A stretch of DNA of 64,000 nucleotides from an uncultured virus (IMG/VR IMGVR_UViG_3300028840_003366) (IMGVR_UViG_3300028840_003366); one strand, 5' to 3'. Shown: positions 1-54,629, counted from the stretch's first letter. Made by a program: numbers and translations. The notes: a model not told the origin generated them from the letters alone.

Positions 1-200
1 CGGAATCGTGTTTCTCCATCCTTTATAACTTTGTTGCAAGAGGAGCAGCGAAGAATAATCTTTTTCTGTCTCTTTTTTTTCTCCGGTTTTATATTTCCAT
101 AGATACAATTTGGGTAATGAGTGCCATCACATTGTCCTGTTTGAGTATCAATACGAAAATATTCACAAGTATCAACTAAAGGACATTTTTTATCATTCAT
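1..200 (-). CDS. Cys-rich hypothetical protein, truncated by window edge
   Basis: Read manually: ATG at 200 overlaps the polymerase stop (ATGA); MNDKKCPLVDTCEYFR...RCSSCNK stays open to position 1. Confidence 0.55.
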   Translation of the reverse strand, partial: MNDKKCPLVDTCEYFRIDTQTGQCDGTHYPNCIYGNIKPEKKKRQKKIILRCSSCNKVIKDGETRF

Positions 201-1588
201 TTTGGAATCTCCTTCTCCTCTTTCTCGGACCAACTTCCTCCAATAGGGCATACTTCAGCTTCAACTTCAAGTGGAACATTGATCCATTTCCATTCATTAG
301 TTAGTTGAGTTGTCATAACAGTATTGGCCAACATCAAAAAATCATCCAGCTCCTTTGCTGGAACATCAGCCAGAATACTGTCATGAATCTGTCCCACAAT
401 CAGTGTTTTCATCTTATGTTTTTTCAATTCACGCACAAGCCTTGTCAATGACCAGAGCAGGCAATGAAAGGCTGAACCCTGCACCGGATAATTGATAACC
501 TCATTGCGCTTCATAAAGCCCTGGCAAATAAATCCAGTCTTAGTCAGCATCCATCCTCTGCTCACATATTTCTGATACCATTTCTTTTTCCATTGAGCAT
601 AGACTTTGAATCGTTTTCCCCAGAAAGCCTTTTCAACCTGTTGGATATGATATTCAAATGAACCTTTGTGTGGGCTTTCCTGGGGATTGCAATCACCTAA
701 TTCCCGTATCCCCTGGCTTTGTAAATGGCGTTTTAAGGGCATTTCATCCTTTGTACATAGTTTTGCTGTGTCTATAGCGCCCCACAGTGCTCTGGCGCAG
801 TCTGTGTACATAGAACCGTAGAATTGAGGGAATACGAAACAGTTTTTTCCGTAGAATCTGATATCCTTTGTTACCTGCCCGGACTTGAGTTTGTAGCATT
901 CTATAGCCATGTCCCGGTGCAAATCCAATTTGGGATTGCCGATGTAGTCTATCATCCTTGGATCTTTGTGATAGGCCGCGGCTATTGCCACCTCAATGCC
1001 GCTATAATCAATTTCCACCAGCTGATGACCTTCTCTGGCAATAAATGCTTTTCTGATCAGATTGCCAAGCTCTTTATCACGAACAGGTATGTTTTGAAAA
1101 TTAGGGGAATCAGAAGATGAACGGTACGTGCGAGTGATGTGAAGATTAAAAAAAGGATGCAAAAAACCGTCCACTACTTCCTTCTGAATTCCCCTTAAAT
1201 AGGTTGTCAATGCCTTCTGTAGTTTTTTGATCTGAAGATATTTTTCTACGAATGGATGGTCTACAGTCATAAGGGTTTTTTCGTTTGTTCTGTACTTCCC
1301 TGTCTTCGTTCTCTCAGGACAGGGAATTTCCATATGCTCAAACAATATCTTTCCCAGTTGATCGTTGGAATTGAAATTGGTTTTGTTTCCAAACACTTTC
1401 TTCCATGTCCGGGCAACCTTTCCTTTTTCCAATTCAGTTTGCAACCGTTGAATTCTCTTTTCAGTTTTTCGTATGGTCTTTTTCAAATATACAGTATCAA
1501 TCTTGATACCATTTCCTTCAATCTCAGCCAGGGCTATTGCCCCATCATGTAGGAGTTTGTAAGCTGATCTCTTGTATGGGATCACCAT
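197..1588 (-). CDS. Family A DNA polymerase, polymerase (thumb/palm/fingers) domain only
   Basis: RSSSDSPNFQNIP, motif A EIDYSGIE, DLH, variant motif B RFYGKNCFVFPQFYG, NYPVQGSA, motif C QIHDSI. Confidence 0.95.
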   Translation of the reverse strand: MVIPYKRSAYKLLHDGAIALAEIEGNGIKIDTVYLKKTIRKTEKRIQRLQTELEKGKVARTWKKVFGNKTNFNSNDQLGKILFEHMEIPCPERTKTGKYRTNEKTLMTVDHPFVEKYLQIKKLQKALTTYLRGIQKEVVDGFLHPFFNLHITRTYRSSSDSPNFQNIPVRDKELGNLIRKAFIAREGHQLVEIDYSGIEVAIAAAYHKDPRMIDYIGNPKLDLHRDMAIECYKLKSGQVTKDIRFYGKNCFVFPQFYGSMYTDCARALWGAIDTAKLCTKDEMPLKRHLQSQGIRELGDCNPQESPHKGSFEYHIQQVEKAFWGKRFKVYAQWKKKWYQKYVSRGWMLTKTGFICQGFMKRNEVINYPVQGSAFHCLLWSLTRLVRELKKHKMKTLIVGQIHDSILADVPAKELDDFLMLANTVMTTQLTNEWKWINVPLEVEAEVCPIGGSWSEKEEKEIPK

Positions 1589-1782
1589 TCCATACCTTTA
1601 TGAAGTATGATTGTGAATGCTTGTTCTTTTGTAAATCCAGTGTCTATGAGTGCTTCATATTTAGCATGCAGCAATTTGGCCATAGGTTTGATCATATCTT
1701 CAACCAACTCTTGGCTTCCTTGCAGTTGTCTCAAAGTCTCTTCAAGTTCTTTTCTTGAAGGCATTTTCTTGTCATTTCCCAT
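1582..1782 (-). CDS. Small hypothetical protein between the two polymerase halves
   Basis: 66-aa ORF overlapping both neighbours; YEALIDTGFTKEQAF resembles a common small phage protein motif. Confidence 0.6.
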   Translation of the reverse strand: MGNDKKMPSRKELEETLRQLQGSQELVEDMIKPMAKLLHAKYEALIDTGFTKEQAFTIILHKGMEW

Positions 1783-2977
1783 TGAATATCTTTCTTTGTC
1801 TTTTCATAATCATGTATTCTGTCAAACTATCTATACCATTATAAATTAACAGCTCTTTCGGATCAATCTGATCAATCCGGTTGAATCCATTTGAATTCTT
1901 GCCATAGAGGTATGGAGCAATATGAGAATCGTAATCCGATAATCCAAGATGAATATAGGCTTGGAATTTGATTGAAGAAATTCCCGAACGATTGTCAAGA
2001 CAATGAGCAGCAAGCATCGTATCCCAATACCAGCTTTTTACACCATGACCAAGTATTGCTCTGGTCCACCTCTCCTCAAACTTCATATTGCTTGCCACCT
2101 TCTTCAGGTGTTTGCTTTTCAATATATCAGATAGAACACTCTTTGTTCGGTGATCTTCATCTATTCCACAAGCAAACGTATCCTTTCCATTTAGACAAAA
2201 AGAGACAGAGATGATCTTATGTCCTTTCTTGTCAGGTTTCAAGCCATTAGTCTCATAATCAAAAGCCAGTACTCCTTCCTTGGTGCTGAGGTTTGCCATC
2301 CTTGTTCTTGCGTGATCTGGATCAAGGATCACTTCCACCTTACTCTTCAGATTTTCAAGTGAATATTTCTTTACTTTCTTATTCTCAAGACTGATTGCTT
2401 TCTTCAGATGCTGTCTGAATATCTTCACCAATAGCTCATCCTCACCCATTCTCAAGATATAGGAGGGATGATAGGTAGGACAGAGCCAAGCCTTGTACTG
2501 TGGGCTGGGAATAGTCCATCCAATCCATTTTGTCAATGGGCCAATATCTTTTTTCCATTCCTGAAACAACAGACTCTCCAGAGCTGATTTTCCCAGTGCT
2601 ATAATCACAGCCGGTCTCAACCGTTTGATGGTTTTCAATAGGTTGGGACGACAACATTGAATCATGTGTTTTTCAATCTTATTGTTGGGAGGTCTGCAGA
2701 TGACAGTATTCGTTTTCCAACAATCATCCAAATCAATATCAATATCATCCAACACATCTCTCAGTAGCTGACCAGCATCCCCTATGAGCTGAACTCCCTG
2801 TCTATCTTCCTGTTCTCCTGGAGCTTCAGCGACAAAGAGAGTTTTACGTCTTCCCAGACCTGTTGTCTGCATCTTGGGACTAATGCATTTTTTATACAGT
2901 CCACATTTGCCACACCGGGAAATCTTTGGTGTTATCTTTTCTGATTTCAATTCCGAACCGCTGAAGAATCCACGCAT
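1772..2977 (-). CDS. UDG family 4-like domain fused to a DEDD 3'-5' exonuclease (N-terminal half of an SPO1-type polymerase)
   Basis: CxxCxL, AEAPGEQED, CRPP, TYHPSY (UDG4-like); FDYETNG, SNMKFE, WDTMLA, YNGID (Exo I-III); ATG at 2977 overlaps the upstream TAA. Confidence 0.9.
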   Translation of the reverse strand: MRGFFSGSELKSEKITPKISRCGKCGLYKKCISPKMQTTGLGRRKTLFVAEAPGEQEDRQGVQLIGDAGQLLRDVLDDIDIDLDDCWKTNTVICRPPNNKIEKHMIQCCRPNLLKTIKRLRPAVIIALGKSALESLLFQEWKKDIGPLTKWIGWTIPSPQYKAWLCPTYHPSYILRMGEDELLVKIFRQHLKKAISLENKKVKKYSLENLKSKVEVILDPDHARTRMANLSTKEGVLAFDYETNGLKPDKKGHKIISVSFCLNGKDTFACGIDEDHRTKSVLSDILKSKHLKKVASNMKFEERWTRAILGHGVKSWYWDTMLAAHCLDNRSGISSIKFQAYIHLGLSDYDSHIAPYLYGKNSNGFNRIDQIDPKELLIYNGIDSLTEYMIMKRQRKIFNGK

Positions 2978-3987
2978 TATTTTTTCTCTACACAAATGAC
3001 AAAATGAAAATTGTCCTTTTCAATCTTAATGCTTGATTCTCCAAAGATAACCTTTTTCGTTTTGGATAAAATCTCTTTGAGAAAATTCAGACTGACTGTG
3101 AATGATATGCTCTTGCCGGAATACTTGATGCTTCTCTTTTCTTCATACCAAACTCCATCCTTTTCTGTTCTGATCTTCAGAGCATTTTCTTTCAGTGTGA
3201 TATGAGCTTCCCCTAACTGATCCTGAACTACCTGGGCTCGTTCTATCGTATCAGAAATTGTCTTGGGGAAAGAACCTGAAACACCATCAATATTGAGTAT
3301 TGAATGCAGCATTTCATCATCAAAATATTCTATCTCCGAACAACGGAGTGAATATCTTATCCCATTTTCTGATAATAAATGAAGCCAGTTATCTTTTATT
3401 CCAGCTTTCTTTATTGTCTTGTTTCCAAGCAGAAGAATGGAATCAGATGGGATCATTATTTCCCGTTTGATAAATTTTGTAGTCACGTCAACACGAAAGA
3501 CTCTGTATCGGTCCGTAGCTTCAATAAAATTCTTTCGTACATGGACATGGGTGGTTTTGGGATTGGTGTGATCTCTCCCGCATATCTGAGCGCATTGGAA
3601 AAGATAGTGGAAGAAATTTTCCGATACTTTGAACAGCTTTCCAGGTTCAGGGACTTCAGTATACGGAAGCAGAATTTCCTTGAAGATAGTGATACCGGCT
3701 TTCTTTCTTTTCCCTGTCAGGACCAGCTCATTTCCATCCAGGTCAATACCTATCTGATCATCCGGGAATTTTTCAAGTAGCTTCAGGAAATCTGCTCCTA
3801 CAATTGAGAATGGTTGTTTGATACCTATATCATAGTCAGCTGAAGCAAATATCTCCCCATTGAAAGTGAAGATTTTCTTGTCTTTGAAAACAAAGGCGTT
3901 GGATTGTTCCAGTACTTCATTTGGCGTCAGGATACACTTCAGGCCATTTAGGACTGTGATGACTTCCGCTCTTTTCTTGACAGCCAT
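2977..3987 (-). CDS. DNA sliding clamp, beta-subunit-like
   Basis: 336 aa; EATDRYR resembles the ATDGHRL motif of beta clamps; three-domain length; adjacent to polymerase. Confidence 0.7.
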   Translation of the reverse strand: MAVKKRAEVITVLNGLKCILTPNEVLEQSNAFVFKDKKIFTFNGEIFASADYDIGIKQPFSIVGADFLKLLEKFPDDQIGIDLDGNELVLTGKRKKAGITIFKEILLPYTEVPEPGKLFKVSENFFHYLFQCAQICGRDHTNPKTTHVHVRKNFIEATDRYRVFRVDVTTKFIKREIMIPSDSILLLGNKTIKKAGIKDNWLHLLSENGIRYSLRCSEIEYFDDEMLHSILNIDGVSGSFPKTISDTIERAQVVQDQLGEAHITLKENALKIRTEKDGVWYEEKRSIKYSGKSISFTVSLNFLKEILSKTKKVIFGESSIKIEKDNFHFVICVEKK

Positions 3988-4286: not shown

Positions 4287-4470
4287 CCTGTCTTCTTTCT
4301 GTTTTTTGTTTTTTCTTTTCAACCATTGCCTCGAATCTCTCTTTTGTTTCTGAAAATCCTTTCCTCATTTCTAAGTATTCAAAGCTAAACAAAACATGTT
4401 TAAGTCTTGGTTCACATATAAACACCACTGATTTTTTTCTTCTGATGTTACCTGCAAGATAAATGATCAT
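4258..4470 (-). CDS. Mini-ORF A (MIIYLAG...HVLFSFEY)
   Basis: 70 aa; ATG at 4470 overlaps the dpdA-like stop (ATGA coupling). Confidence 0.65.
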   Translation of the reverse strand: MIIYLAGNIRRKKSVVFICEPRLKHVLFSFEYLEMRKGFSETKERFEAMVEKKKQKTERRQDDHLSGWSH

Positions 4471-5426
4471 AGTAACGTCTTTCTCTTCTTGAGTTTTAGA
4501 GCCCATGGCCACCTCGGCAGATGGGCCTCAAACTCAGTGAAGGCATACAGGCAAGCATCAACTCTTCTCATTCTAGTGTTTGATACACCTGGAGATTCGA
4601 CTACTTCAATCTCTTCTCCTTTAACAAGCCAGTTCTCACCGTCCTTCTTCAAGACATAGTTTGGATTGACCTTTTTGTATGAACTTTCCCCAAAGGGAAT
4701 GCCGGCGCTCTCCAAGTATTCAAGAATATACCTTCTTAAGTAGGAAGGCTTGTTCCTGAAGTGGGTATTGGAACCAGGGTCTTTCTTAAACCCAACGTTT
4801 GAGACGGTAATGCTCTCAATAGAACCCCAATCGTATCCCTCTGTCTTTCCTTTCTTCGGGTAGAGAATGGAACCGAACCCTGGACTTATCACCCAAGAGG
4901 TGGAGTCCACAGAATACCAAGGATATCTTTTCATGAGACTGAAGCTGGTCATTCCAAATCCATGTACTTTTATCTTTGGTATTCCTTTGTTATCAGTAAG
5001 AATCTCTGACCATACCATATCTAAAAGCTGTCGTAAAATTACAGAAGAAACTCCAACCATCGCTCCAATACAAATGTAGTCATATCCTTCATCAATATAT
5101 CTCTGAAGCCATTTCACATCAGAATCAATATGCCAGACCGGACATGGTTTGAATCCCCGTTTCTCAAACCATTTCTGATTCTTGTAGGTAAGCTCAGCAT
5201 TCCCAATCACGTCAAGATTTGCATAAACATCAAAATGCTTGGCATGCTTTTTCAGAAAGCGAACGTATTCCCTTCGATATGTTTTGTATTCGTCTGAGCA
5301 AACGTAAGAATAATCATCCCGTGAACGACTCTTGAGAGTAGACATAGCCGATCCATCCATGCTTCCCTTTGATAATCTCTTATAGATACCAAAGGCTCCA
5401 CTATCAAGAAACAGCTTGATGCTCAT
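4467..5426 (-). CDS. dpdA: DpdA-like TGT-fold DNA 7-deazaguanine transglycosylase
   Basis: FLDSGAF, NLDVIG, PVWH, VHGFG, PWYSVDSTSW motifs; adjacent to folE/queE/queD/queC. Confidence 0.82.
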   Translation of the reverse strand: MSIKLFLDSGAFGIYKRLSKGSMDGSAMSTLKSRSRDDYSYVCSDEYKTYRREYVRFLKKHAKHFDVYANLDVIGNAELTYKNQKWFEKRGFKPCPVWHIDSDVKWLQRYIDEGYDYICIGAMVGVSSVILRQLLDMVWSEILTDNKGIPKIKVHGFGMTSFSLMKRYPWYSVDSTSWVISPGFGSILYPKKGKTEGYDWGSIESITVSNVGFKKDPGSNTHFRNKPSYLRRYILEYLESAGIPFGESSYKKVNPNYVLKKDGENWLVKGEEIEVVESPGVSNTRMRRVDACLYAFTEFEAHLPRWPWALKLKKRKTLL

Positions 5427-5433
5427 GATATTC

Positions 5434-7218: not shown

Positions 7219-7793
7219 AATGGATTCTCCTTTACAAATTCAACAGCAGACTCGAAGTCTTCACTGCAAGGCTGGATGTAGAAATGATTAAATCTGGTAT
7301 GTAGACGTAAGGGCAATTTCCTTATTAGTTCAACGTCAATATCTGGCTCAAGAACAATCTTCAATTCATCACCTGACCACTCTTTATCATCAAAGAATGC
7401 TGTACAATCTTCCACCATTATTTTTGGTGAGACTGTCACCCAGATGTTGCTAAGACGTGGGATACTTTTCAGATTGTATCCGTTGGTCTCTATGGCGATT
7501 TCATTAGGTGAAAGCATCAATGTGAGTTCTGTCAATAAAGGATTAAGATCGTATAAAGTTGGTTCTCCTCCTGTGATAACAATCAGAACAAATGGAGGCC
7601 ATCTTTGAGGCAAAAGTTCTCCTACCATCTGAACAATTTGCTCTTCTGACATCTTTTCATGTTTTGTATGGTTGGTATCACACCAAGGACATTTCAAATT
7701 GCAGCCAGACAATCGAATAAAAACTGCAGGGCGTCCGGCATAAAATCCTTCACCTTGCAAGCTGTAAAAGATTTGGTTTATGGGATATAGCAT
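7173..7793 (-). CDS. queE: 7-carboxy-7-deazaguanine synthase (radical SAM)
   Basis: IFYSLQGEG, CNLKCPWCDT, ITGGEP, IETNG, TVSPK, LSVQIHK. Confidence 0.95.
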   Translation of the reverse strand: MLYPINQIFYSLQGEGFYAGRPAVFIRLSGCNLKCPWCDTNHTKHEKMSEEQIVQMVGELLPQRWPPFVLIVITGGEPTLYDLNPLLTELTLMLSPNEIAIETNGYNLKSIPRLSNIWVTVSPKIMVEDCTAFFDDKEWSGDELKIVLEPDIDVELIRKLPLRLHTRFNHFYIQPCSEDFESAVEFVKENPLWMLSVQIHKLINIS

Positions 7794-8143
7794 GCCAGAT
7801 TTCCTTCGCTCTCTTGGACTGAGACTTTGGAAATACAGGGAATTTCATCCCCTTCCCATTCTTCATTAATTCTCTTCTGAATTTCAAAGGCAATCCAGAA
7901 GGCCATGTTCTCAGCCGTAGGATTTAAGGAAATATGATCATTGATATGAGAATGGTCCAACTGATTGACAATTTCCTTGATGTGTTTGAAATCAATCAGC
8001 ATTCCATTCTCATTCAGTCTTTCTCCTTGTACCTCTACAATCACATTCCAATTATGGCCATGAAGTTCTGAACAGGGAGAATCATAATCCAGATTCAGTC
8101 TATGGCTTCCGGCAATCTCAATCCTTTTTGAGATCGTATACAT
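7778..8143 (-). CDS. queD: 6-carboxytetrahydropterin synthase
   Basis: SHRL, CSELHGHNW, GMLIDF, LDH, PTAEN, VQES. Confidence 0.95.
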   Translation of the reverse strand: MYTISKRIEIAGSHRLNLDYDSPCSELHGHNWNVIVEVQGERLNENGMLIDFKHIKEIVNQLDHSHINDHISLNPTAENMAFWIAFEIQKRINEEWEGDEIPCISKVSVQESEGNLACYIP

Positions 8144-8812
8144 CTACTCTTCCTCATATTGAACAGGATCAATCTGACCAATATTTCTGAAGGCCTCCAA
8201 ACGTTCCTGACAAGCTCCACATTTTCCACACGCCAACTCCTGATCCTTGTAACAGGTACGAGTGAGTTGATATGGGAAAGGTTCTTTTGAAGATTCATAA
8301 CCATATTGAAGTATGGTTGTTTTGTTTCCGTGGAGAAAGGGAGCCTGAAGGGACACTTTCCCATCAGTCCCTTTCTCCACAGCCCAATCCATCGCATGAA
8401 AAAACTTGGGTCTACAATCTGGATAGATAAAATGATCCCCAGCATGTATTCCTAGAACCACTGTATCAAAATCACGGCTTTCTGCAATCCCTGCAAGAAT
8501 TGAAATGAAAATCATATTCCTGCCTGGAACAACAGTCTGTCTCATGGATTCAGATTCATAATGACCTTCAGGAATATTTCCACCATTCCTAAGCAGATTG
8601 GATCTGAGATGATTACCAATTGCTGACAGGTCTATCCGTATGAATTCCACTTCAAAGTGATAAGCCAGTTGCTCAGCACATTTCTGTTCATACGGATTGT
8701 GCTTGCTTCCATAGATGAAACCAACAGCAATAACTTCTTCACTATTATTGATAGCCCAGTCAAGAGCTGTTGCCGAATCCATCCCACCTGATAATGATAC
8801 TACCGACTTCAT
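8144..8812 (-). CDS. queC: 7-cyano-7-deazaguanine synthase
   Basis: SGGMDS, VVPGRN, YPDCRP, TCY...CGKCGAC. Confidence 0.96.
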   Translation of the reverse strand: MKSVVSLSGGMDSATALDWAINNSEEVIAVGFIYGSKHNPYEQKCAEQLAYHFEVEFIRIDLSAIGNHLRSNLLRNGGNIPEGHYESESMRQTVVPGRNMIFISILAGIAESRDFDTVVLGIHAGDHFIYPDCRPKFFHAMDWAVEKGTDGKVSLQAPFLHGNKTTILQYGYESSKEPFPYQLTRTCYKDQELACGKCGACQERLEAFRNIGQIDPVQYEEE

Positions 8813-11558: not shown

Positions 11559-12397
11559 TGGACGAATTCCTCAATGATCTTTTTATTCGGGTCGGTTTTA
11601 TCATTGGTCATTCTCATCATGCACTGCTCAATATCAAAAAATTTATGGCAAAAGCCTGACATGGAGTTTGACTGAGGTACAAACTTGGGGAGATATTTTC
11701 TATTGTATGGATTATTTTTATTGAATTGGGAACAATACCATAATAGAACTTTTTTTACTCTGGATTTATCTAATTTTTCTTTTTTTATAAAATTTTCTAG
11801 CTTTCTTGCCCAAGATTTTGATGATGGTGTTTCTGATCTTTTGATAAGAGTAGATTTGATAAATTTTTTGGATAATTTTTCACACATGGATTGTTTGTTT
11901 TTGTTTGCTTTACTTTCTTTTCCTTTACTTTCCTTTACTTTATGTGATTTAACTGAGTTAATGCAACCATTATCTGAGTTAATGCAACCATTATCTGAGT
12001 TAATGTTTGTATTAACTATCAAATACTCTTTTATGAGGTTAATTTCTTTTCTTCTTTCAATTGCTTTTATATATCTTTTTTGAATACCATTCGATGTCAG
12101 AATGCCATATTTTTTGTATTTATCCTTGCTGAAAAAATCTCTTTTTAATAACTCATTAACCACATCATTTACCAGATCAAAAGTAGTGTTTTTTCCATTT
12201 CTTCTAGCAAACAGGAAACATTCATCTTCACCCCATTTTAGATAATATCCATTTCGATATATTCTTAGAAGCAATTTGATGATAATGAGTTCTCCTAATT
12301 CACCATATTTTGCAGATATGAATTCTACCTTTTCATCTTCAAAGAAATCAATATCAATATTGATATAATCTAATCCAGCTTTGGTTGGTCTTGCCAT
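11555..12397 (-). CDS. Replication initiator-like protein (DUF4373-type N-terminus)
   Basis: MARPTKAGLDY...DFFEDEK...ILTSNGIQKRY; ESKGKESK linker; internal tandem repeats. Confidence 0.75.
   Translation of the reverse strand: MARPTKAGLDYINIDIDFFEDEKVEFISAKYGELGELIIIKLLLRIYRNGYYLKWGEDECFLFARRNGKNTTFDLVNDVVNELLKRDFFSKDKYKKYGILTSNGIQKRYIKAIERRKEINLIKEYLIVNTNINSDNGCINSDNGCINSVKSHKVKESKGKESKANKNKQSMCEKLSKKFIKSTLIKRSETPSSKSWARKLENFIKKEKLDKSRVKKVLLWYCSQFNKNNPYNRKYLPKFVPQSNSMSGFCHKFFDIEQCMMRMTNDKTDPNKKIIEEFVQ
11953..12005. repeat. 21-bp tandem repeat, 2.5 copies (CTGAGTTAATGCAACCATTAT), iteron-like
   Basis: Two exact copies plus an 11-bp partial copy; encodes INSDNGC repeats. Confidence 0.85.
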
Positions 12398-12789
12398 TAT
12401 ATACTCATCAAATTCTTTAAATATTTTTTGTTTTTCATTCCGATGCGATAAAGAATTGTCAGTACGTTTTCATCCTTTAATGCTTTTGAAATTATTTGTA
12501 AATCAGAAGAAAAATACCCATGTTGTCTTATGATGTTTTGAATATCTTGAAGATATCTTCTTGATTTTATTTTTTCTTCTTCATGGCATGTTTCACAAAG
12601 AGTTATTAGTTGATGATCTTCATATTCCCAAGGTTTTTTATTTTTATCATACCATGTGTGATGAATGTGTAAGGTTGTTTTTTCATCACAACAGAGGCGA
12701 CAAGCCCACTCATCTCTTTCAAGAATTTCTAACCGTTTCTTTTGCCAACGAGGATCTTTGAATAATTCAATATAATTTTGTCCATCCAT
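12397..12789 (-). CDS. HNH endonuclease family protein
   Basis: DPRWQKKRLEILERD, CRLC, LHIHH, LITLCETCH. Confidence 0.85.
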   Translation of the reverse strand: MDGQNYIELFKDPRWQKKRLEILERDEWACRLCCDEKTTLHIHHTWYDKNKKPWEYEDHQLITLCETCHEEEKIKSRRYLQDIQNIIRQHGYFSSDLQIISKALKDENVLTILYRIGMKNKKYLKNLMSI

Positions 12790-12962: not shown

Positions 12963-13856
12963 TCAAAAGCCCAATTCCTTCATTATCTTGTTTGCTTCGT
13001 CTTGATTCAAATCACCAGGATCAGTTTTTAACCCTGAGATGATTTCAGTTTCACCAGGAAAAGGAGCCAGCCAAGCAGCCAGTTTTTCAGCTTGTTTTTG
13101 GGCCTCCTTTTCCGGGTCAAACATGATAAATCTATGAGAAACATTTTTCAATATGAATGCTTGCTCCTCTTTCCAATTGATTCCAAGAACAGCAACAGCA
13201 CCAGGCCCCATTCTCCAGACATCACTTGGACCTTCCACAATCAAAACACGGTCTTTGATTTTCTGAATTCCATACAATAGCTTTTTCGGTTCTTCAGACA
13301 TCTCTTCATTGTGAGAGATTTTCCATTTTGGTTTTGTTTCTGGATTGATTGCTCTTCCGATATAGGCTACAATTTGCCAAGAGACGTTAAAAATGGGTGT
13401 TATAACACGCCATGACCAAGAACCTGATAATCCCTTAGTTCCTGATAAACTCCATTCCTGGGCCAATTTTGAAGGTATAAAACCCCTTTTTTTCAGGTAT
13501 TGCCTATGAATCTTTGAAAGAGATTCCATGTGAAGTGGTTTCTTTGCTTTCTTTCTTCGTGGCCGCTGTTCTTTTTTTGGAAGGATGATTCTGTCGTGAT
13601 TATACAATCGGAGAATTTGTCCGACAGAAACTCCCCGGTGCTTCAGGGTAATAAAAAGAAATTGAGTAATGTGATGGGAACCACATCTCCAGCAATTCAT
13701 GTTCCCGTGTTCGATATTGAATCCTAGGTGCCAGCCATCGGTCCCATCCGTGCAGAAAGGACAATGAACTTGAATCCATCCCTCATGGCAATGATGATGA
13801 CCACTCTCAAGGAATGGAATATTGAAGTCTTTGCAGAGCCTTGTGAAGTCTAGCAT
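12963..13856 (-). CDS. DNA primase (zinc finger plus TOPRIM)
   Basis: CPFC...CWRCG; IVEGPSD, MFDPE, KTDPGD. Confidence 0.88.
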   Translation of the reverse strand: MLDFTRLCKDFNIPFLESGHHHCHEGWIQVHCPFCTDGTDGWHLGFNIEHGNMNCWRCGSHHITQFLFITLKHRGVSVGQILRLYNHDRIILPKKEQRPRRKKAKKPLHMESLSKIHRQYLKKRGFIPSKLAQEWSLSGTKGLSGSWSWRVITPIFNVSWQIVAYIGRAINPETKPKWKISHNEEMSEEPKKLLYGIQKIKDRVLIVEGPSDVWRMGPGAVAVLGINWKEEQAFILKNVSHRFIMFDPEKEAQKQAEKLAAWLAPFPGETEIISGLKTDPGDLNQDEANKIMKELGF

Positions 13857-13857
13857 T

Positions 13858-14010
13858 TTATTTTGAGAATTTGGTCATAAAATCTATAATAGCATCCCTC
13901 ATTGTGATCTTGAGTAGAGCGCATCGAGCCTTGAATTTGTTTTTCAATTCCAAGGGTACGTTCCAGATTAACAATTCACATTCATCCTTCTTTTTCCGTT
14001 CTGCAGTCAA
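13858..14010 (-). CDS. Ribbon-helix-helix (CopG/Arc/ParG-like) DNA-binding protein, 50 aa
   Basis: Read manually: TTG overlapping the helicase stop; LLIWNVPLELKNKFKARCALLKITMRDAIIDFM. Confidence 0.65.
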   Translation of the reverse strand: MTAERKKKDECELLIWNVPLELKNKFKARCALLKITMRDAIIDFMTKFSK

Positions 14011-16373
14011 TTCTTTTCTCCTTTTTCTATGAGCTGAATTACTTTTGAAATATCCACTAATGATTTCCTATGGGATTTACCATCAATGATTTGGTCAATC
14101 ACTTCTCTCTTTTTTTCAATAACATCCCACACATATTGATCCACAGTATTTCGTCCTAGGATATAATAGACATTTACTTTATTATACTTTTGACCGATTC
14201 GATTCACTCTATCCTCTGCTTGATTGTGTTCGCTTGGAGTCCATCCTAATTCAATGAAGAGCACGCTTCGGGCAGCAGTTAAAGTGATTGATTCCTTGTC
14301 TGCTCTGATAGTTCCTATGAACAATCTACACTTGTCATTAGATTGAAATTTGTTCACTTCGTTTTGTCTTTTCTTTCCTGATTTCCCTCCAATTGCAGCT
14401 ATCCTTTTATACTGTGTAATCAATGTTTGGAATATTTCTTGATGATAAACAAAGATCACTAGTTTTTCATCAGTGGAGAAAAGAAAATTGTCAATCCATT
14501 CACATGCTTGAGACAGTTTGCCTTTGGCTGTTAATTGTTTTAGCTGGCCTAGCTTGACCAGCGCTTGAGCTTTCTTTGCTCTCTTCGCCGCCACGGTTCC
14601 TGCTTTGTTTTTGTACCATTGAAGGAAAGAGACTGTAGCCTTGTGATATTCAGCTTGATTGTCTATGTCTACAGACATTATTGTCCTTTGTTTTTCTGGC
14701 AGCTGTTTTAATACTTCTTTTTTCATCCTGCGAAGGAATAGAGGCTCGATTCGTTCTCTCAATTCATCCAGATGACTGGCTCCACTAAAATCCCATCCTT
14801 TGCCAGCCCATCCTCTTTTTGGATCACAATATCTGAAAGCAAATTTCCAGAAGCTAGAGAATTCTTTTGGACATATCATGTTGAGTATAGGAAAAAATTC
14901 AACAGGCCTATTGATGATAGGAGTGCCACTCATAGCGATTATGTGTCTGCTTTTCTTGGCAAGTTCTTTGCAGACTCTTGTCCGTTTTGCTCTCAAGTTT
15001 TTTACATAATGACAATTATGAACTAAAAAATCATTTACATAGTATGATGGATGTCCAGAAACTTGTAAATTGTAAACAGTGTGTTGGGAAGGTTTTCCAT
15101 TATTTCTTGGTTTGTAAATCTCAATCCTTTCCACCCTAATTTCATCAATAGATTTTTTTTCTTTTTGTCTTTTGCAATTATATGTGGCTGTTTGTGTGAC
15201 CAACCGTCTACTTCTATCCAAATCTTTTTTTCTAAAAGAGCTATATCTACTTTGTAACATGTAGGATAGCCAGATTTTCTTTTTTGTTTTGTTCGGATTG
15301 CATGCTCTATTTTCCATGGAGAGCCTAATGCCGCCCATAAAATTCTTTGTGGCTGTGAAAATTCTTTTCCATTGCCTCCTTTTGCTTGTATTTTTGATAA
15401 AGGATGACCATATTTTTTCCAATGTGCTTTGATCTTTTTTTTCACTTCTGGTTTGGAAGATGGATTGTTTTCTTTCATTCTTTTTGAAGAAGCTTTGGCG
15501 ATATGTGGATTGTCTTTGTGCATCTTTATTGCACGAGCAGAACGGACTTCGTGGGTTTGATTTTTGTAAATCTTTCTTTTGATATGTGGTTGACTCATTC
15601 TCCATTTCGCTGAGCAAGAGCAACCGCAAAATCTTTGTGTTTTTCTTTTTGGATTGAATTTCTTTTGGCACCATTGGCATTTGATCATTTTTCTTTTTCT
15701 CTCTTAATATAGTGTCTTCATTCATTATATTAAGAACATCTGTAGAAGTCAAAAGAATTTTTTGATAAAGATTTTTTGCTTTTATCCATCCTTCAGATGT
15801 AAAGAAAGGATGATTAGGGGTTGTTTGTATTTTTGTTCCATTACTTAAATGAAGTTCTATTAAGTTAGAAATTCTTTTGTTTGTCTTTTTTACAATTCCT
15901 ATACCAAAAGCATTTAGGACAGAATCTCCTAGTTTTATTTTTTCAATAGGAATATAACCTGAAGGGGTTTTTATAGGAGTGCCTGTAGGAAAACACTCAT
16001 CTGTGATCAATACTTTGGGTTGAATGCCTAGAAGTTTTTCTTTCCAATAAGCCAAAATATCATAGTTGATGATGACAATGGGCTCAGTAACAGGTTCAGG
16101 ATTTCTGCTGTTTAATATTTGATATCTCATATGAGTGTGCTGTTCAATCTGATCAGCCCAATTATATTTGGAGCTGGCTGGACAAACAATAATAACAGGG
16201 CGTTTGCTTGGATTAACAGCTAACCAACCTAGCGCTTGAATTGTTTTCCCAAGACCCATATCATCCCCCAGGAGAGCCCGTCCTTTTGTTTGTTTGAAGA
16301 ACAGCATCCCTCTACGCTGAAAAGGATATGGTTTTGTTTTCAGGACTTTTTTGAGTCTCTTTTTTAGAGACAT
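14007..16373 (-). CDS. SNF2/HARP-like SF2 helicase, intein-containing
   Basis: DDMGLGKT, VCPAS, DE|CH (motif II split by intein), MSGTPIINRP, QAEDRVNRIGQ. Confidence 0.93.
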   Translation of the reverse strand: MSLKKRLKKVLKTKPYPFQRRGMLFFKQTKGRALLGDDMGLGKTIQALGWLAVNPSKRPVIIVCPASSKYNWADQIEQHTHMRYQILNSRNPEPVTEPIVIINYDILAYWKEKLLGIQPKVLITDECFPTGTPIKTPSGYIPIEKIKLGDSVLNAFGIGIVKKTNKRISNLIELHLSNGTKIQTTPNHPFFTSEGWIKAKNLYQKILLTSTDVLNIMNEDTILREKKKNDQMPMVPKEIQSKKKNTKILRLLLLSEMENESTTYQKKDLQKSNPRSPFCSCNKDAQRQSTYRQSFFKKNERKQSIFQTRSEKKDQSTLEKIWSSFIKNTSKRRQWKRIFTATKNFMGGIRLSMENRACNPNKTKKKIWLSYMLQSRYSSFRKKDLDRSRRLVTQTATYNCKRQKEKKSIDEIRVERIEIYKPRNNGKPSQHTVYNLQVSGHPSYYVNDFLVHNCHYVKNLRAKRTRVCKELAKKSRHIIAMSGTPIINRPVEFFPILNMICPKEFSSFWKFAFRYCDPKRGWAGKGWDFSGASHLDELRERIEPLFLRRMKKEVLKQLPEKQRTIMSVDIDNQAEYHKATVSFLQWYKNKAGTVAAKRAKKAQALVKLGQLKQLTAKGKLSQACEWIDNFLFSTDEKLVIFVYHQEIFQTLITQYKRIAAIGGKSGKKRQNEVNKFQSNDKCRLFIGTIRADKESITLTAARSVLFIELGWTPSEHNQAEDRVNRIGQKYNKVNVYYILGRNTVDQYVWDVIEKKREVIDQIIDGKSHRKSLVDISKVIQLIEKGEKN
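15015..15995 (-). mobile_element. Intein (327 aa) inserted in the helicase DECH motif
   Basis: Starts CFPTGT, block B TTPNHPF, ends VYNLQV...LVHN followed by Cys+1. Confidence 0.93.
15035..15688 (-). CDS. Zn-finger plus Vsr/DUF559-like endonuclease nested in the +1 frame of the intein
   Basis: CQWC..FCGCSC, basic linker, YKVDIA..KIWIEVDGWSH, DKKK..L..LGWKGLRFTN. Confidence 0.87.
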   Translation of the reverse strand: MIKCQWCQKKFNPKRKTQRFCGCSCSAKWRMSQPHIKRKIYKNQTHEVRSARAIKMHKDNPHIAKASSKRMKENNPSSKPEVKKKIKAHWKKYGHPLSKIQAKGGNGKEFSQPQRILWAALGSPWKIEHAIRTKQKRKSGYPTCYKVDIALLEKKIWIEVDGWSHKQPHIIAKDKKKKNLLMKLGWKGLRFTNQEIMENLPNTLFTIYKFLDIHHTM

Positions 16374-16888
16374 TGCCTGATCTCTGCAAAGGATTTTTCA
16401 ATTCTGATTTCATCCCAATCCATTGCATCAATCATATAATTTCGTATGGCTTTCTTGGAGAGTTTTGGGCAGTTGGGTTTGACGGTCTCATATAATTCTT
16501 CAGGAGCTTCAAAGATGATTTTCACTAGCTGTTGGGTTTCTTCTGACAACTCATTGAGAAAATTTTTGAACCAGTTGGGTTTTGTCTCTTGCTCTACAAA
16601 TGTTGGGTTATCTGATTCATGAGGAATTTCTCTTTCCGGTTTACAATAATTCCAGGTATGAAAGTAAGCACAGTTGTAGACATGAGTACAGAGGCCTCCT
16701 CTTTTTGGATTCCATTCTTGGATTCTTGTCAGCACGTGATACATTGCTTCTGCATACAATTCATCAAATGGTTTGTTGAATTTTTTGCTCATAGTATGAG
16801 CTATCTTCATGATCATCTTGTTATATCTGCGGTAGATTCGGTCAGGTGTAGGAAAGCAATTTGTGGTGGGTTTCATTGGTTCCTCCAT
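16364..16888 (-). CDS. Sigma-factor-like protein (region 2-like)
   Basis: YNKMIMKIAH...FDELYAEA...WNPKRGGLCTHVY resembles sigma70 region 2. Confidence 0.65.
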   Translation of the reverse strand: MEEPMKPTTNCFPTPDRIYRRYNKMIMKIAHTMSKKFNKPFDELYAEAMYHVLTRIQEWNPKRGGLCTHVYNCAYFHTWNYCKPEREIPHESDNPTFVEQETKPNWFKNFLNELSEETQQLVKIIFEAPEELYETVKPNCPKLSKKAIRNYMIDAMDWDEIRIEKSFAEIRQCL

Positions 16889-16959
16889 TAGGATGAAGAA
16901 GAAAGGAAAGGTATAGAAGTATAATTCAAAAATTTTGAAAATAAAGAGAAAAATAAAAA

Positions 16960-17133
16960 TTATTTTTTAATGAAATGAGCAGACAAAAACAGCTCATGAT
17001 TGGAACACTGATCAACAATTTTTAGGATGAATTCATCAGGCTTGTTCTTGGGGTCCACAGGGTCGAACGTGAGAACTCCTGCCTGAATTCTTTTCATCAT
17101 CTTTTCGTCACAGATTATGGTCACGTTATACAT
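16960..17133 (-). CDS. Small hypothetical early protein
   Basis: Read manually: MYNVTIICDEKMMKRIQAG..., GGAG upstream. Confidence 0.5.
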   Translation of the reverse strand: MYNVTIICDEKMMKRIQAGVLTFDPVDPKNKPDEFILKIVDQCSNHELFLSAHFIKK

Positions 17134-18040: not shown

Positions 18041-18213
18041 TCTCCTATCTTGCTATAGTCAATATCTAAACACCAACCACTCACCGTGTCAAAATATCTC
18101 AGCTCAATCAACTCCACCTGGTTAGAACCCTCGTTGATTTCAACCTCAATCCCGGAGCAATCTTTTAATGAGATCATTTTCAAATGTTTTGTTTACTTTT
18201 TCATATCTTATCT

Positions 18214-18273
18214 TTCTATAAGTAATATAACATATTTTGATACGAATGTCAACAGAAAAATCGGAAAAATTTT
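18214..18273 (-). promoter_or_regulatory. Strong early sigma70 promoter, copy 1 of an identical 60-bp repeat
   Basis: TTGACA-17bp-TATATT with extended TG and an AT-rich UP region; identical to 54560-54619. Confidence 0.85.
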
Positions 18274-18389
18274 TAGATTTTCAAATCTGCTGAATTTAAG
18301 TAGATAGAGCGGGTTTTCTCGCTGTTTAGAATAACCCATTTTAACAGTCAATTCAACAAAAATTATAATAGAATGAATAGGAGAACCAT

Positions 18390-44233: not shown

Positions 44234-44360
44234 TAGAACGCTCAAAATTCGTTTATAAAGAGGGTTTGTTTTTGAGCATAAGAAACTATATAAAAAGAAA
44301 GAAACGGCTTCCTAGGGACTGTTTTGAAGCTCTTAGGTATATAGAAATAGGGAAAAGCGT

Positions 44361-54473: not shown

Positions 54474-54559
54474 TCTCCTATTTCTTCGCTTCGTAAAGAC
54501 CTGTCCCCAGCCGCTTGCTTGAAATCTTTTGCTCTGCCATCTCTATTTCCTTATTAACG

Positions 54560-54619
54560 TTCTATAAGTAATATAACATATTTTGATACGAATGTCAACA
54601 GAAAAATCGGAAAAATTTT
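54560..54619 (-). promoter_or_regulatory. Strong early sigma70 promoter, copy 2 of an identical 60-bp repeat
   Basis: Identical to 18214-18273. Confidence 0.85.
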
Positions 54620-54629
54620 ATAGAAAATA

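What the first reader, a model, noticed from the sequence alone, without database searches (positions are those of the whole stretch)
15015..15995. Contiguous intein whose homing endonuclease is overprinted in the +1 reading frame
Seen: a 327-aa intein (C1 CFPTGT, TxxHPF, VHN|C) splits the helicase DE|CH motif. Its in-frame middle (about 215 aa) shows no recognisable nuclease motif. The same DNA, read +1 on the same strand, encodes a complete 217-aa protein (ATG 15688, stop 15035) with a zinc finger and Vsr/DUF559-type motifs (VDIA, IEVDG.SH, GW..LRF.N). Both frames stay open for over 200 codons in AT-rich DNA. Codons before AA-/GA-starting codons are often C-ending (ATC AAA, TTC AAT, TAC AAA, CAC GAA, GAC AAT), which avoids stops in the intein frame. 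Known: intein endonucleases are normally in frame, and Vsr-like endonucleases occur between split-intein halves in fractured phage genes. Inference: this is a dual-coding selfish element whose nuclease is translated independently of splicing, possibly an intermediate towards split inteins.
Basis: partly seen in the sequence, partly recalled or inferred. Interest (0 to 1): 0.9.

Follow-up and report, generated by a model that had tools for sequence, protein, structure and literature searches.

The report
Nuclease gene overprinted inside an intein
A phage helicase gene carries a self-splicing protein insert (an intein) whose DNA also encodes, one base out of step, a complete DNA-cutting enzyme, and the same two-in-one layout recurs in about a hundred related viral sequences, so it is a stable, selected design of a kind that has only recently been recognised.

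Summary
On the minus strand an SNF2-type helicase ORF (14007..16373) is interrupted after its Walker-B DE by a 327-aa intein (15015..15995). Its ends match Hint/intein models; its middle matches nothing. In the +1 frame lies a 217-aa ORF (15035..15688), a DUF559/Vsr-like (EDxHD-type) nuclease with many relatives.

This is family-wide. In 79 of the 80 best viral loci, 18 of 18 MAG loci and two cultured phages, the host frame stays open through the nuclease gene, always in the same phase. Synonymous shuffling of the nuclease codons predicts 714.5 host-frame stops across 68 unique loci; none is observed. The nuclease frame is under purifying selection (dN/dS 0.09-0.27). The host frame is unconstrained in the overlap (0.76-2.2) and constrained in the flanks. 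AlphaFold models the nuclease at pLDDT 91. The in-frame intein middle scores about 40, between well-folded Hint ends.

A strong sigma-70-like promoter lies 35 nt upstream of the nuclease ATG. Independent expression is inferred, not shown.

Out-of-frame intein endonucleases are already in print (dnaX; actinophage inteins). I found no report of a sense-strand +1 Vsr-like case, or of its prevalence. The "intermediate towards split inteins" idea is not supported. Verdict: real, and a new variant of a known kind.

The parts
14007..16373 (-). Precursor ORF of an SNF2-family (SF2) helicase, 788 aa, read through the intein without a stop
   Evidence: ORF; SNF2-rel_dom E 2.3e-28, Helicase_C E 3.5e-9; phrog_62 DNA helicase E 1.1e-90
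15996..16373 (-). N-extein, ending in the Walker-B/motif II residues ...ITDE
   Evidence: junction ITDE|CFPTGT
15015..15995 (-). Contiguous class-1-type intein, 327 aa (C1 ... T59xxH62 ... H326 N327, then Cys+1)
   Evidence: (Intein_splicing 49.6 bits, cut-off 35.8)
15696..15995 (-). N-terminal Hint splicing region (intein residues 1-100), confidently folded
   Evidence: pLDDT 72-98 per block of 10; Hint_2, PT-HINT, Vint hits
15153..15695 (-). In-frame filler of the intein (residues ~101-281): stop-free, no family match, predicted disordered, evolving neutrally in this frame
   Evidence: no hit; pLDDT mostly 38-59; host-frame dN/dS 0.76-2.2 in relatives
15015..15152 (-). C-terminal splicing region (intein residues 282-327; RVERIEIY...VYNLQVSGHPSYYVNDFLVHN)
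   Evidence: pLDDT 78-95; conserved C-terminal block and HN|C
15035..15688 (-). Nested +1-frame gene: 217-aa zinc-finger + DUF559/Vsr-like (EDxHD-type) putative homing endonuclease
   Evidence: DUF559 E 1.5e-11; 22 relatives, up to 56% identity, E 2e-79; 3HRL E 3.8e-12; 3R3P E 1.4e-4; pLDDT 91; top fold match 3R3P; dN/dS 0.09-0.27
15035..15152 (-). Doubly constrained stretch: the nuclease C-terminus (LGWKGLRF...IYKFLDIHHTM) and the intein C-terminal splicing strands are encoded by the same bases
   Evidence: in relatives, nucleotide identity 0.86 here against 0.74 in the filler part; host-frame pN 0.13 against 0.27
15724..15752 (-). Sigma-70-like promoter match TTGACT-17-TATAAT (11 of 12), ending 35 nt upstream of the nuclease ATG, inside the N-intein coding sequence
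   Evidence: (similar matches at the same distance in relatives: 15 of 65 loci against 2.5 expected)
14007..15014 (-). C-extein starting CHYVKN... (motif II continues DE|CH), helicase motifs and Helicase_C

Best explanation
This is a two-layer selfish element in a tailed phage's SNF2-type helicase gene.

Layer 1 is a contiguous intein inserted between the Walker-B DE and the CH of motif II. Its N-terminal (~100 aa) and C-terminal (~46 aa) Hint segments fold together and splice the helicase. These steps are inferred from intact catalytic residues and from conservation.

Layer 2 is an autonomous gene cassette nested in the intein's endonuclease-insertion loop. It is read in the +1 frame and encodes a zinc-finger + Vsr-like (EDxHD/DUF559) nuclease. 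That nuclease most likely cuts intein-less DE|CH alleles and drives homing of the whole element (inferred).

The helicase frame is kept free of stops across the nuclease gene purely by synonymous codon choice in the nuclease. No codon ending in T stands before a codon starting AA, AG or GA. Ribosomes translating the helicase therefore produce a ~180-aa disordered linker in place of an endonuclease domain.

The nuclease is probably expressed on its own from an internal promoter and start codon (inferred). Only its last ~40 codons share bases with folded intein sequence, and there both frames are constrained.

The architecture is shared by a large lineage of such elements in SF2 helicase and clamp-loader genes.
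For: Anatomy.

The nuclease is a real protein family.
- It has 22 relatives at up to 56% identity, E 2e-79.
- A profile search finds 854 cluster representatives at E<=1e-30.
- D148, E159, D161 and H165 are invariant.
- The profile matches 3HRL (E 3.8e-12) and I-Bth0305I 3R3P (E 1.4e-4).
- The AF2 model has pLDDT 91. Its best fold matches are 3R3P, 3HRL and 1VSR.

The nesting is conserved.
- The host frame is open through the nuclease in 79 of 80 viral loci (67 of 68 unique), at 489-2206 codons and G+C 0.28-0.66. The third frame is closed (0-92 codons).
- The same holds in 18 of 18 MAG loci.
- It also holds in Corynebacterium phage phi673 gp43 and the Vibrio phage 159E43-1b helicase. There the nuclease is unannotated inside the helicase CDS.
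- 65 of 67 host ORFs have Hint/Intein_splicing hits spanning the nuclease.
- 59 of 68 show DEC upstream, and 67 of 68 show a [HSK]N|[CS] junction at the nuclease stop.

Selection.
- Host-frame stops: 0 observed against 714.5 expected. The largest P(no stop) for any locus is 0.007.
- Nuclease-frame dN/dS is 0.09-0.27. Host-frame dN/dS is 0.76-2.2 in the overlap and 0.07-0.38 in the flanks (19 pairs).
- The last 33-48 codons are doubly constrained.
- The in-frame intein model has folded ends and a middle at pLDDT ~40.

Not an artefact.
- An IMG/VR contig differs by 1 base in 6651, with no gap.
- Contigs of runs from two studies carry 14900-16100 with no difference or indel.

No in-frame form.
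- No relative of 381-2000 aa was found.
- All 150 best representatives are 174-353 aa.

Expression cues.
- An 11/12 promoter match ends 35 nt upstream of the ATG.
- Promoter matches at that distance occur in 15 of 65 loci against 2.5 expected.
- SD-like motifs occur in 26 of 66 loci.
Against: No expression, splicing or cleavage data exist for any member. No RNA run holds the stretch.

The window itself has no Shine-Dalgarno-like motif before the ATG. The total number of promoter-like sites in 14000-17000 is not above chance: 10 against 7.8 +/- 3.0.

The nuclease start codons in relatives were chosen by a heuristic.

The loci are related by descent. Counts such as 79 of 80 or 15 of 65 are therefore not independent events, and the Poisson tails overstate significance. 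The 80 loci are the best of at least 287 relatives, so more distant members may be arranged differently.

The Foldseek E-values are modest (2e-3), although probability is 1.00 and TM is 0.64-0.72 on the target.

Host-frame dN/dS above 1 is an expected artefact of overlap, not evidence of positive selection.

Both run contigs may be the source of the window.

That a Hint domain splices efficiently around a ~180-aa disordered insert is assumed. The only support is the persistence of the arrangement and its presence in two cultured phages.
Confidence: 0.85

Rival explanations
1. Programmed +1 ribosomal frameshifting. Ribosomes translating the helicase/N-intein slip into the nuclease frame and make an N-extein-N-intein-nuclease fusion, rather than initiating internally.
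For: The two ORFs are on one strand and the shift needed is +1. The window has an A-rich run (AGAAAAAGAAAAATG) just before the nuclease start and no SD-like motif. In many relatives the nuclease frame is open for tens of codons upstream of the putative start.
Against: In the window the nuclease frame has a stop five codons upstream of the ATG, so any shift would have to occur within 15 nt. Homology among nucleases begins at the start codon and zinc finger. In 57 of 66 loci a start codon lies within 12 codons upstream of the first CxxC, and 51 of the 66 starts are ATG. Promoter-like and SD-like motifs are enriched just upstream. One free-standing relative (L057) has the same protein without any upstream ORF in phase.
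Confidence: 0.05
2. Sequencing or assembly artefact. The real intein has an in-frame Vsr-like endonuclease domain, and two compensating indels in A/T homopolymers created the apparent frame change.
For: The region is A/T-rich with long A runs. Canonical inteins carry in-frame endonucleases, and this same phage has one with an in-frame HNH domain.
Against: The same phase relation is seen in 79 of 80 viral loci, 18 of 18 MAG loci and two finished phage genomes, at G+C from 0.28 to 0.66. An independent contig is gap-free against the window. Contigs of two studies show no indel. The nuclease ORF has its own start and stop. No in-frame fused form was found.
Confidence: 0.01
3. A decaying relic. The nuclease ORF, the intein or both are no longer functional, and the open frames are leftovers of a recent invasion.
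For: No functional data exist. The 2025 preprint (section 15) argues that such secondary ORFs should decay quickly once homing stops.
Against: Nuclease-frame dN/dS is 0.09-0.27 over pairs 70-85% identical in DNA. Catalytic residues are invariant. Stop-freeness of the host frame is maintained against an expectation of 4-16 stops per locus. Intein junction residues are conserved. Flank dN/dS is 0.07-0.38. In several pairs the element is more alike than the flanking exteins: synonymous difference (pS) is 0.37 in the nuclease frame against 0.68-0.71 in the exteins for L039/L065. This fits continued horizontal spread.
Confidence: 0.05
4. A transitional form on the way to a split intein or fractured gene (the first reader's evolutionary suggestion, after the model of Dassa et al. 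2009).
For: Vsr-like endonuclease genes sit between split-intein halves in fractured phage genes and overlap the downstream half by 6-69 bp (Dassa 2009, passages seen). One stop in the filler would convert this element into that arrangement.
Against: None of the 98 related loci examined has a stop in the host frame with intein halves on both sides. 97 are contiguous and 1 is free-standing without an intein. The contiguous form spans deep divergence (nucleases 35-60% identical to the window's) and two host gene families. Stops are actively avoided.
Confidence: 0.1

Closest known systems
Cyanobacterial dnaX intein with an out-of-frame LAGLIDADG endonuclease (Gorbalenya 1998, known to me only as cited; Phillips, DeSimone & Gogarten, bioRxiv 10.64898/2026.09.14.751524; I read the abstract and sections 10 and 17)
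   Same: A contiguous intein whose in-frame middle is a low-confidence disordered stretch. A folded homing endonuclease lies in an overlapping same-strand ORF. Selection is frame-dependent (low omega in the endonuclease frame, high in the host frame). SD motifs lie upstream.
   Different: The nuclease family differs (LAGLIDADG against Vsr-like/EDxHD), as do the host (cyanobacterial chromosomes against phages) and the host gene and site. That paper calls such architectures a rarity. Here it is the rule for a whole nuclease lineage.
Non-canonical actinobacteriophage inteins (Gosselin, Arsenault, Gogarten et al., bioRxiv 10.1101/2025.01.02.630785; passages and section 15 read)
   Same: Phage inteins carry a VSR-like (possibly EDxHD) or endonuclease VII-like nuclease outside the intein reading frame. 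The in-frame part has no recognisable structure. The proposed origin is invasion of an intein by a free-standing endonuclease gene.
   Different: Their VSR-like nucleases are on the antisense strand. Their same-strand case is endonuclease VII-like in 'frame 3'. Their hosts are DNA polymerase, minor capsid, terminase and thymidylate synthase. They state that VSR-like nucleases had otherwise been reported only with split inteins. Here the VSR-like nuclease is on the sense strand in +1, in helicase and clamp-loader genes. I could not open their supplementary tables.
Fractured genes: split inteins with a free-standing Vsr-like endonuclease gene between the halves (Dassa et al. 2009, PMC2677866; passages seen)
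   Same: The same kind of nuclease is associated with inteins in phage DNA-metabolism genes. The endonuclease brings its own control elements. Its 3' end overlaps the C-intein coding sequence.
   Different: In fractured genes the host frame is broken: there is a stop after the N-intein and a new start for the C-intein, with trans-splicing. Here the host frame is continuous through the whole nuclease gene, with cis-splicing.
[quoted passage not shown] 2011, PMC3239194; passages seen; PDB 3R3P)
   Same: Vsr-like catalytic domain. The profile match is E 1.4e-4, and 3R3P is the best fold match of the model. The architecture has an N-terminal DNA-binding part and a C-terminal nuclease.
   Different: I-Bth0305I is encoded in a group I intron in recA. 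About 22% identity over ~107 aligned residues. The N-terminal region here is a CxxC...FCxxSC zinc-finger-like module.
ShiLan 'hidden' HNH endonuclease in phage methylase genes (Arsenault, Gosselin & Gogarten 2025, PMC11855218; abstract and section 22 read)
   Same: [quoted passage not shown] The question of how the hidden ORF is translated is open.
   Different: There are no intein splicing domains, so the insert stays in the host protein as a loop. The nuclease is HNH, and leaderless GTG initiation in mycobacteria is proposed.

Membership tests
Intein (Hint-fold protein-splicing element, class 1 type) | Match to intein/Hint profile above the curated threshold | tested here: met
   Intein_splicing scores 49.6 bits (cut-off 35.8) on the 327-aa segment. 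PT-HINT scores 30.4 bits (cut-off 27.7).
Intein (Hint-fold protein-splicing element, class 1 type) | Catalytic residues: Cys/Ser1, block B TxxH, C-terminal His-Asn, and Cys/Ser/Thr at +1 | tested here: met
   C1, T59xxH62, H326-N327 and C+1 are read directly. H62 is nearly invariant in 42 related inteins. C1 and the C-terminal [HA]N were selection criteria for that alignment, so their conservation there is not informative. In the unselected set, 67 of 68 have an [HSK]N|[CST] junction.
Intein (Hint-fold protein-splicing element, class 1 type) | Hint fold formed by the N- and C-terminal segments | tested here: met
   In the AF2 model, beta-rich residues 1-100 (pLDDT 72-98) and 281-327 (78-95) are confident. 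I did not run a fold search on this model.
Intein (Hint-fold protein-splicing element, class 1 type) | Protein splicing of the precursor | not testable with these tools
   Indirect only: the same arrangement sits in the helicase genes of two cultured phages.
EDxHD / Vsr-like homing endonucleases (DUF559, PD-(D/E)xK superfamily) | Profile match to DUF559 / Vsr-like catalytic domain | tested here: met
   DUF559 E 1.5e-11, 44.6 bits against a cut-off of 20.6. PDB profile search: 3HRL E 3.8e-12, 3R3P E 1.4e-4.
EDxHD / Vsr-like homing endonucleases (DUF559, PD-(D/E)xK superfamily) | Conserved acidic and histidine catalytic residues (composite EDxHD motif as described by Taylor 2011) | tested here: met
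   D148, E159, D161 and H165 are invariant, and D174 is nearly invariant, in 23 sequences. E159-x-D161-G-x-x-H165 aligns with the EV(N/D)G..H segment of 3HRL and 3R3P. The residue-by-residue mapping onto the published motif is my inference.
EDxHD / Vsr-like homing endonucleases (DUF559, PD-(D/E)xK superfamily) | Vsr-like fold | tested here: met
   The model has pLDDT 91. Foldseek ranks 3R3P_A first (E 2e-3, probability 1.00, TM 0.64 on the target), then 3HRL (0.72) and 1VSR.
EDxHD / Vsr-like homing endonucleases (DUF559, PD-(D/E)xK superfamily) | Site-specific cleavage of the element-free allele and homing | not testable with these tools
   Suggestive only. In some pairs the element is more alike than the exteins, and it occurs in two host gene families at a DE|C site.
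Non-canonical intein with an out-of-frame endonuclease ORF | Host frame open through the endonuclease ORF, with the endonuclease in another frame under purifying selection | tested here: met
Fractured gene / naturally split intein | Stop codon after the N-intein, and a separate start for the C-intein plus C-extein | tested here: not met
   The host frame is continuous over 788 codons in the window and in 97 of 98 related loci. The exception has no intein.
Self-splicing intron carrying a homing endonuclease gene | Group I or group II intron RNA structure | tested here: not met
   An Rfam scan of 13800-16600 at E<=1 gave only one sub-threshold sRNA match (19.5 bits against a gathering score of 60). 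The host frame is open.

The most novel reading that the evidence does not exclude
A whole, widespread lineage of Vsr-like (EDxHD) homing endonuclease genes is obligately nested. Each is a complete gene cassette (promoter, start, ORF) living in the +1 frame inside the endonuclease loop of a contiguous intein. The lineage has persisted through deep divergence and has moved between SF2 helicase and clamp-loader genes at a shared Walker-B DE|CH site. The +1 phase may be favoured by the genetic code, because in that phase every host-frame stop can be removed by a synonymous third-position change in the nuclease. The host gets a free disordered linker and the nuclease loses nothing. If so, out-of-frame intein endonucleases are not rare curiosities but a common, overlooked architecture. 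Many inteins filed as 'mini' or 'degenerate' in phage and metagenome annotation would then hide working nucleases.
Probability: 0.6. Interest if true: 0.7.

Novelty: new variant of a known kind. Interest (0 to 1): 0.6.

Why it matters
It shows that an intein and its homing endonuclease can be two separate genes written on the same bases. It also shows that this is a stable, selected and apparently common design rather than an accident.

Four things follow.
- It gives direct support to the view that inteins acquired their nucleases by invasion of free-standing endonuclease genes.
- It offers a clean natural example of how cheaply a second reading frame can be kept open: zero stops against about 700 expected, achieved through synonymous sites alone.
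- It warns that annotation pipelines miss these nucleases. In two finished phage genomes the ORF is not annotated.
- It points to culturable systems, Corynebacterium phage phi673 and Vibrio phages, in which splicing, independent expression and homing could be tested.

Inteins that tolerate a ~180-aa unstructured insert are also of practical interest for protein engineering.

Tried and rejected
- PHROGs on the nuclease: only a weak hit to an unnamed family over the zinc-finger part (E 0.0066). Uninformative.
- Search for in-frame fused forms among proteins of 381-2000 aa: none at E<=0.001. The tool itself calls this weak evidence. The unrestricted profile search gave lengths of 174-353 aa for the best 150, but the other 704 clusters at E<=1e-30 were not inspected.
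- Rfam scan for an intron: nothing.
- First attempt at start-codon contexts: the script crashed on a locus without a start. It was redone with another heuristic. The start calls remain heuristic.
- Shine-Dalgarno in the window: none found. I do not read this as evidence against internal initiation, because the host is unknown.
- RNA evidence: no RNA run holds the stretch.
- Run X3: holds only short pieces. Nothing is concluded from it.
- Careful ML tree: did not finish in the time limit. Only the quick tree (SH-aLRT) was used, and no rooting or direction of host switches is claimed.
- Considered and rejected: that conserved host-frame words in the filler (for example LQSR) indicate a functional in-frame peptide. 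They are the shadow of the conserved nuclease motif YKVD on the same bases, and host-frame dN/dS there is about 1 or more.
Full report
**1. What is there**

On the minus strand of the window, ORF 14007..16373 encodes a 788-aa protein. Pfam finds an SNF2-related domain and Helicase_C in it, and PHROGs calls it a DNA helicase.

After the Walker-B/motif II residues ...ITDE the sequence continues CFPTGT. It returns to helicase sequence 327 residues later, at ...FLVHN|CHYVKN. The inserted segment (15015..15995) matches Intein_splicing above Pfam's threshold (49.6 bits against 35.8). That match covers residues 35-327 as a single stretch with a large internal gap. Hint-type models match only the first ~90 residues, and nothing matches the middle. 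C1, T59xxH62, H326-N327 and Cys+1 are all present.

In the +1 frame of the same strand, ATG 15688 to TAA 15035 encodes 217 aa. This protein has a CxxC...FCxCSC N-terminus and matches DUF559 at its C-terminus (E 1.5e-11, 44.6 bits against 20.6).

**2. The +1 product is a real, conserved nuclease**

- It has 22 relatives in the 5.8-billion-protein collection, at up to 56% identity and E 2e-79. D148, E159, D161, G162 and H165 are invariant among them.
- A profile of these sequences finds 854 cluster representatives at E<=1e-30 among 1.84 billion. The 150 best are all 174-353 aa long.
- The profile matches the DUF559 structure 3HRL (E 3.8e-12). It also matches the catalytic domain of the homing endonuclease I-Bth0305I, 3R3P (E 1.4e-4).
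- AlphaFold2 models the protein at mean pLDDT 91. Foldseek ranks 3R3P first, then 3HRL and E. coli Vsr. The E-values are modest (2e-3), but probability is 1.00 and TM is 0.64-0.72 on the target.

It is therefore a member of the Vsr-like 'EDxHD' homing endonuclease family of Taylor et al. 2011 (passages seen).

**3. The overprinting is the rule for this lineage**

A profile-guided scan of IMG/VR found at least 287 loci encoding relatives, and the best 80 were kept. They are 35-60% identical to the window's nuclease, apart from L001, which is a near-copy of the window.

*Open host frame.*
- In 79 of the 80 loci, the frame that stands to the nuclease as the intein frame does in the window is open right through the nuclease gene. 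It runs 489-2206 codons, at locus G+C from 0.28 to 0.66. The third frame is closed, with open stretches of 0-92 codons.
- Twelve loci are duplicates (one is the window's own sequence). That leaves 67 nested loci out of 68 unique ones.
- The exception, L057, is a free-standing nuclease gene. Its end overlaps by 17 nt the start of a gene with a weak Helicase_C match, and there is no intein.

*Intein features in the host frames.*
- In the host frames the nuclease stop mostly lies 2-25 codons before an intein C-terminus such as ...LVHN|C.
- 65 of 67 host ORFs give Intein_splicing or Hint hits that span the nuclease region. The two misses, L041 and L075, still end LVHN|S/C.
- 59 of 68 have DEC upstream of the nuclease. 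67 of 68 have a [HSK]N|[CST] junction: HN|C 46, HN|S 11, SN|C 9, KN|C 1.

*Host genes.* There are 48 SF2 helicases, four of them fused to an N6/N4 methylase, and 19 AAA+ clamp-loader (DNA_pol3_delta2) genes.

*Other collections.*
- All 18 relatives found in one-genome-per-species contigs show the same nesting. All are MAGs of diverse phyla.
- So do two cultured phages, Corynebacterium phage phi673 (gp43) and Vibrio phage 159E43-1b. Their nuclease ORFs lie in +1 inside the annotated helicase CDS and are not annotated themselves.

**4. Selection in the two frames**

*Stop avoidance.* Shuffling synonymous codons within each nuclease ORF (300 times) predicts 4.2-15.9 host-frame stops per locus, or 714.5 in total over 68 unique loci including the window. 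None is observed, and the largest fraction of stop-free shuffles for any locus is 0.007. In the third frame 1286 stops are observed against 1171 expected.

The mechanism is visible. A host-frame stop can arise only where a nuclease codon ending in T is followed by one starting AA, AG or GA. T-ending codons are 0 of 4534 in that context and 28.8% of 9740 elsewhere. The host frame is therefore kept open at no cost to the nuclease protein.

*dN/dS (Nei-Gojobori) for the 19 locus pairs with 70-85% DNA identity:*

| Frame and region | dN/dS |
|---|---|
| Nuclease frame, overlap | 0.09-0.27 |
| Host frame, overlap | 0.76-2.2 |
| Host frame, flanking intein and extein parts | 0.07-0.38 where not saturated |

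Substitutions concentrate at the nuclease's third codon positions: 1454, against 750 and 646 at positions 1 and 2.

*Double constraint.* The last 33-48 nuclease codons overlap the intein's folded C-terminal strands. In the window, LGWKGLRF in one frame is RVERIEIY in the other. Both frames are constrained there. Mean nucleotide identity is 0.86 against 0.74 in the filler part, and host-frame pN is 0.13 against 0.27.

*Structure.* The 327-aa intein was modelled with an alignment of 42 related inteins. It has confident beta-rich ends (residues 1-100 at pLDDT 72-98; 281-327 at 78-95). The middle is mostly at 38-59.

**5. Not an artefact, not an intron, no in-frame form**

- An IMG/VR contig differs from the window by one base in 6651, with no gap.
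- Contigs from runs of two different studies carry 14900..16100 without a difference or indel, though either could be the window's source.
- Rfam finds no intron.
- No relative of 381-2000 aa was found (weak evidence). None of the 150 best representatives is longer than 353 aa.

**6. How the nuclease is expressed (inferred)**

In the window the nuclease frame is closed five codons upstream of the ATG. The best sigma-70-like match in 14000..17000 is TTGACT-17-TATAAT (11 of 12), and it ends 35 nt upstream of that ATG. The total count of such matches in the region is not above chance, at 10 against 7.8 +/- 3.0.

I took the nearest start codon upstream of the first CxxC as the start. On that basis:
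- 15 of 65 loci have a match of 9/12 or better ending 25-50 nt upstream, against 2.5 expected.
- 8 have a match of 10/12 or better, against 0.5 expected.
- 26 of 66 have an SD-like word 4-16 nt upstream, though the window does not.
- The starts are ATG 51, GTG 11 and TTG 4.

These loci are related, so the counts are not independent. Even so, conservation of the signal at a fixed distance suggests that the nuclease came as, and remains, a self-contained cassette. A +1 frameshift from the helicase frame cannot be excluded, but nothing specific supports it.

**7. Evolution**

On a quick maximum-likelihood tree of 68 nucleases, host type needs 4 changes, against a shuffled mean of 17.1. Two helicase-borne nucleases sit inside the mainly clamp-loader clade, and the free-standing L057 sits among helicase-borne ones. 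The tree is unrooted, the careful search did not finish, and well-supported branches force only one change.

Both host families are interrupted at a DE|C(H) Walker-B site. This fits occasional switching between genes that share a nucleotide-binding motif, as proposed for other inteins in the 2025 preprint.

In some pairs the element is less diverged than the exteins around it. For L039/L065, nuclease-frame pS is 0.37 against extein pS of 0.68-0.71. That is suggestive of horizontal spread but is not a formal test.

No split form was seen among the 98 related loci. I therefore read the arrangement as a stable state, not a step towards split inteins.

**8. What is known**

Full-text searches show that out-of-frame intein endonucleases are in print.
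- *dnaX intein.* It carries a LAGLIDADG gene in an overlapping ORF (Gorbalenya 1998 as cited; Phillips et al. 2026 preprint, sections 10 and 17 read).
- *Actinophage inteins.* They carry antisense LAGLIDADG or VSR-like nucleases, or a same-strand endonuclease VII-like nuclease (2025 preprint; passages and section 15 read). That preprint states that VSR-like nucleases had otherwise been reported only with split inteins, and calls these architectures extremely rare.
- *Fractured genes.* Dassa et al. 2009 described Vsr-like genes between split-intein halves.
- *ShiLan insert.* Arsenault et al. 2025 described a hidden HNH without an intein.

None of these searches returned a sense-strand, +1-frame Vsr-like/EDxHD nuclease inside a contiguous intein, or its family-wide prevalence. 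The library lacks most subscription journals, and I could not open the preprints' supplements. The kind is known; this is a new variant and a much larger population than reported.

**9. Context**

The window is a tailed-phage genome. It carries terminase, portal, tape measure, replication genes and a 7-deazaguanine/queuosine gene set. It also carries a second, canonical intein with an in-frame HNH domain, in a GTP cyclohydrolase I gene.

**10. Verdict**

The dual-coding reading is strongly supported by comparative evidence. Splicing, independent translation and homing remain to be shown experimentally. Novelty: a new variant of a known kind. Interest is moderate to high for the intein, homing-endonuclease and overlapping-gene fields.

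Noticed in passing
window 5434-7218 (-): A second intein in the same phage. The GTP cyclohydrolase I ORF (594 aa) is interrupted by an Intein_splicing domain (residues 293-556, E 3.6e-15) with an in-frame HNH_3 endonuclease (residues 421-463). This is a canonical in-frame architecture beside the overprinted one.
   Followed up: partly
window 197-2995 (-): The family A DNA polymerase is in two ORFs: 1772..2995 (UDG + 3'-5' exonuclease) and 197..1588 (DNA_pol_A). They are separated by ~180 nt holding a short ORF. Whether this is a natural split, or another mobile element or scar, was not examined.
   Followed up: no
window 4467-8812 (-): A cluster of queuosine/7-deazaguanine genes (tRNA-guanine transglycosylase-like, FolE, QueE, QueD, QueC-like). 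It suggests modified guanine in the phage DNA.
   Followed up: no
window 12397-12789 (-): A free-standing HNH endonuclease-like ORF (phrog_119, E 6e-16) lies between a replication initiation gene and the primase.
   Followed up: no
window 43577-51113 (+): Eleven consecutive, tightly packed ORFs of about 200-255 aa each (list). Their similar size and spacing suggest a paralogous array. They were not searched.
   Followed up: no
window 18208-18277 and 54554-54624: A ~70-nt inverted repeat (95.8% identity, one gap) between these two distant places. It was seen when L001 was aligned to the window.
   Followed up: no
L005 786-4700; L022 161-4189; L053 708-4706; L062 1050-4445; L065 1308-4463: These host helicase ORFs carry two inteins. 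The upstream one has an in-frame HNH_3 (L005) or LAGLIDADG_3 (the others) domain. The downstream one holds the overprinted Vsr-like nuclease.
   Followed up: no
L057 2797-4564: The only non-nested relative among the 80 viral loci. It is a free-standing DUF559 nuclease gene whose last 17 nt overlap the start of a gene with a weak Helicase_C match (E 3.9e-4). Its N-terminal region differs from that of the nested forms.
   Followed up: partly
L081 (NC_042354, phi673 gp43) and L082 (OZ196825, Vibrio phage 159E43-1b): In these finished, cultured phage genomes the nested nuclease ORF (215 and 227 open codons) is not annotated. Only the enclosing helicase CDS is.
   Followed up: yes
A1 alignment; P0001, P0002, P0003, P0006, P0015, P0022: Several relatives have a duplicated N-terminal CxxC...FCxxSC zinc-finger module, which makes them 265-306 aa long. 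Many top representatives show 2-4 matched stretches.
   Followed up: no
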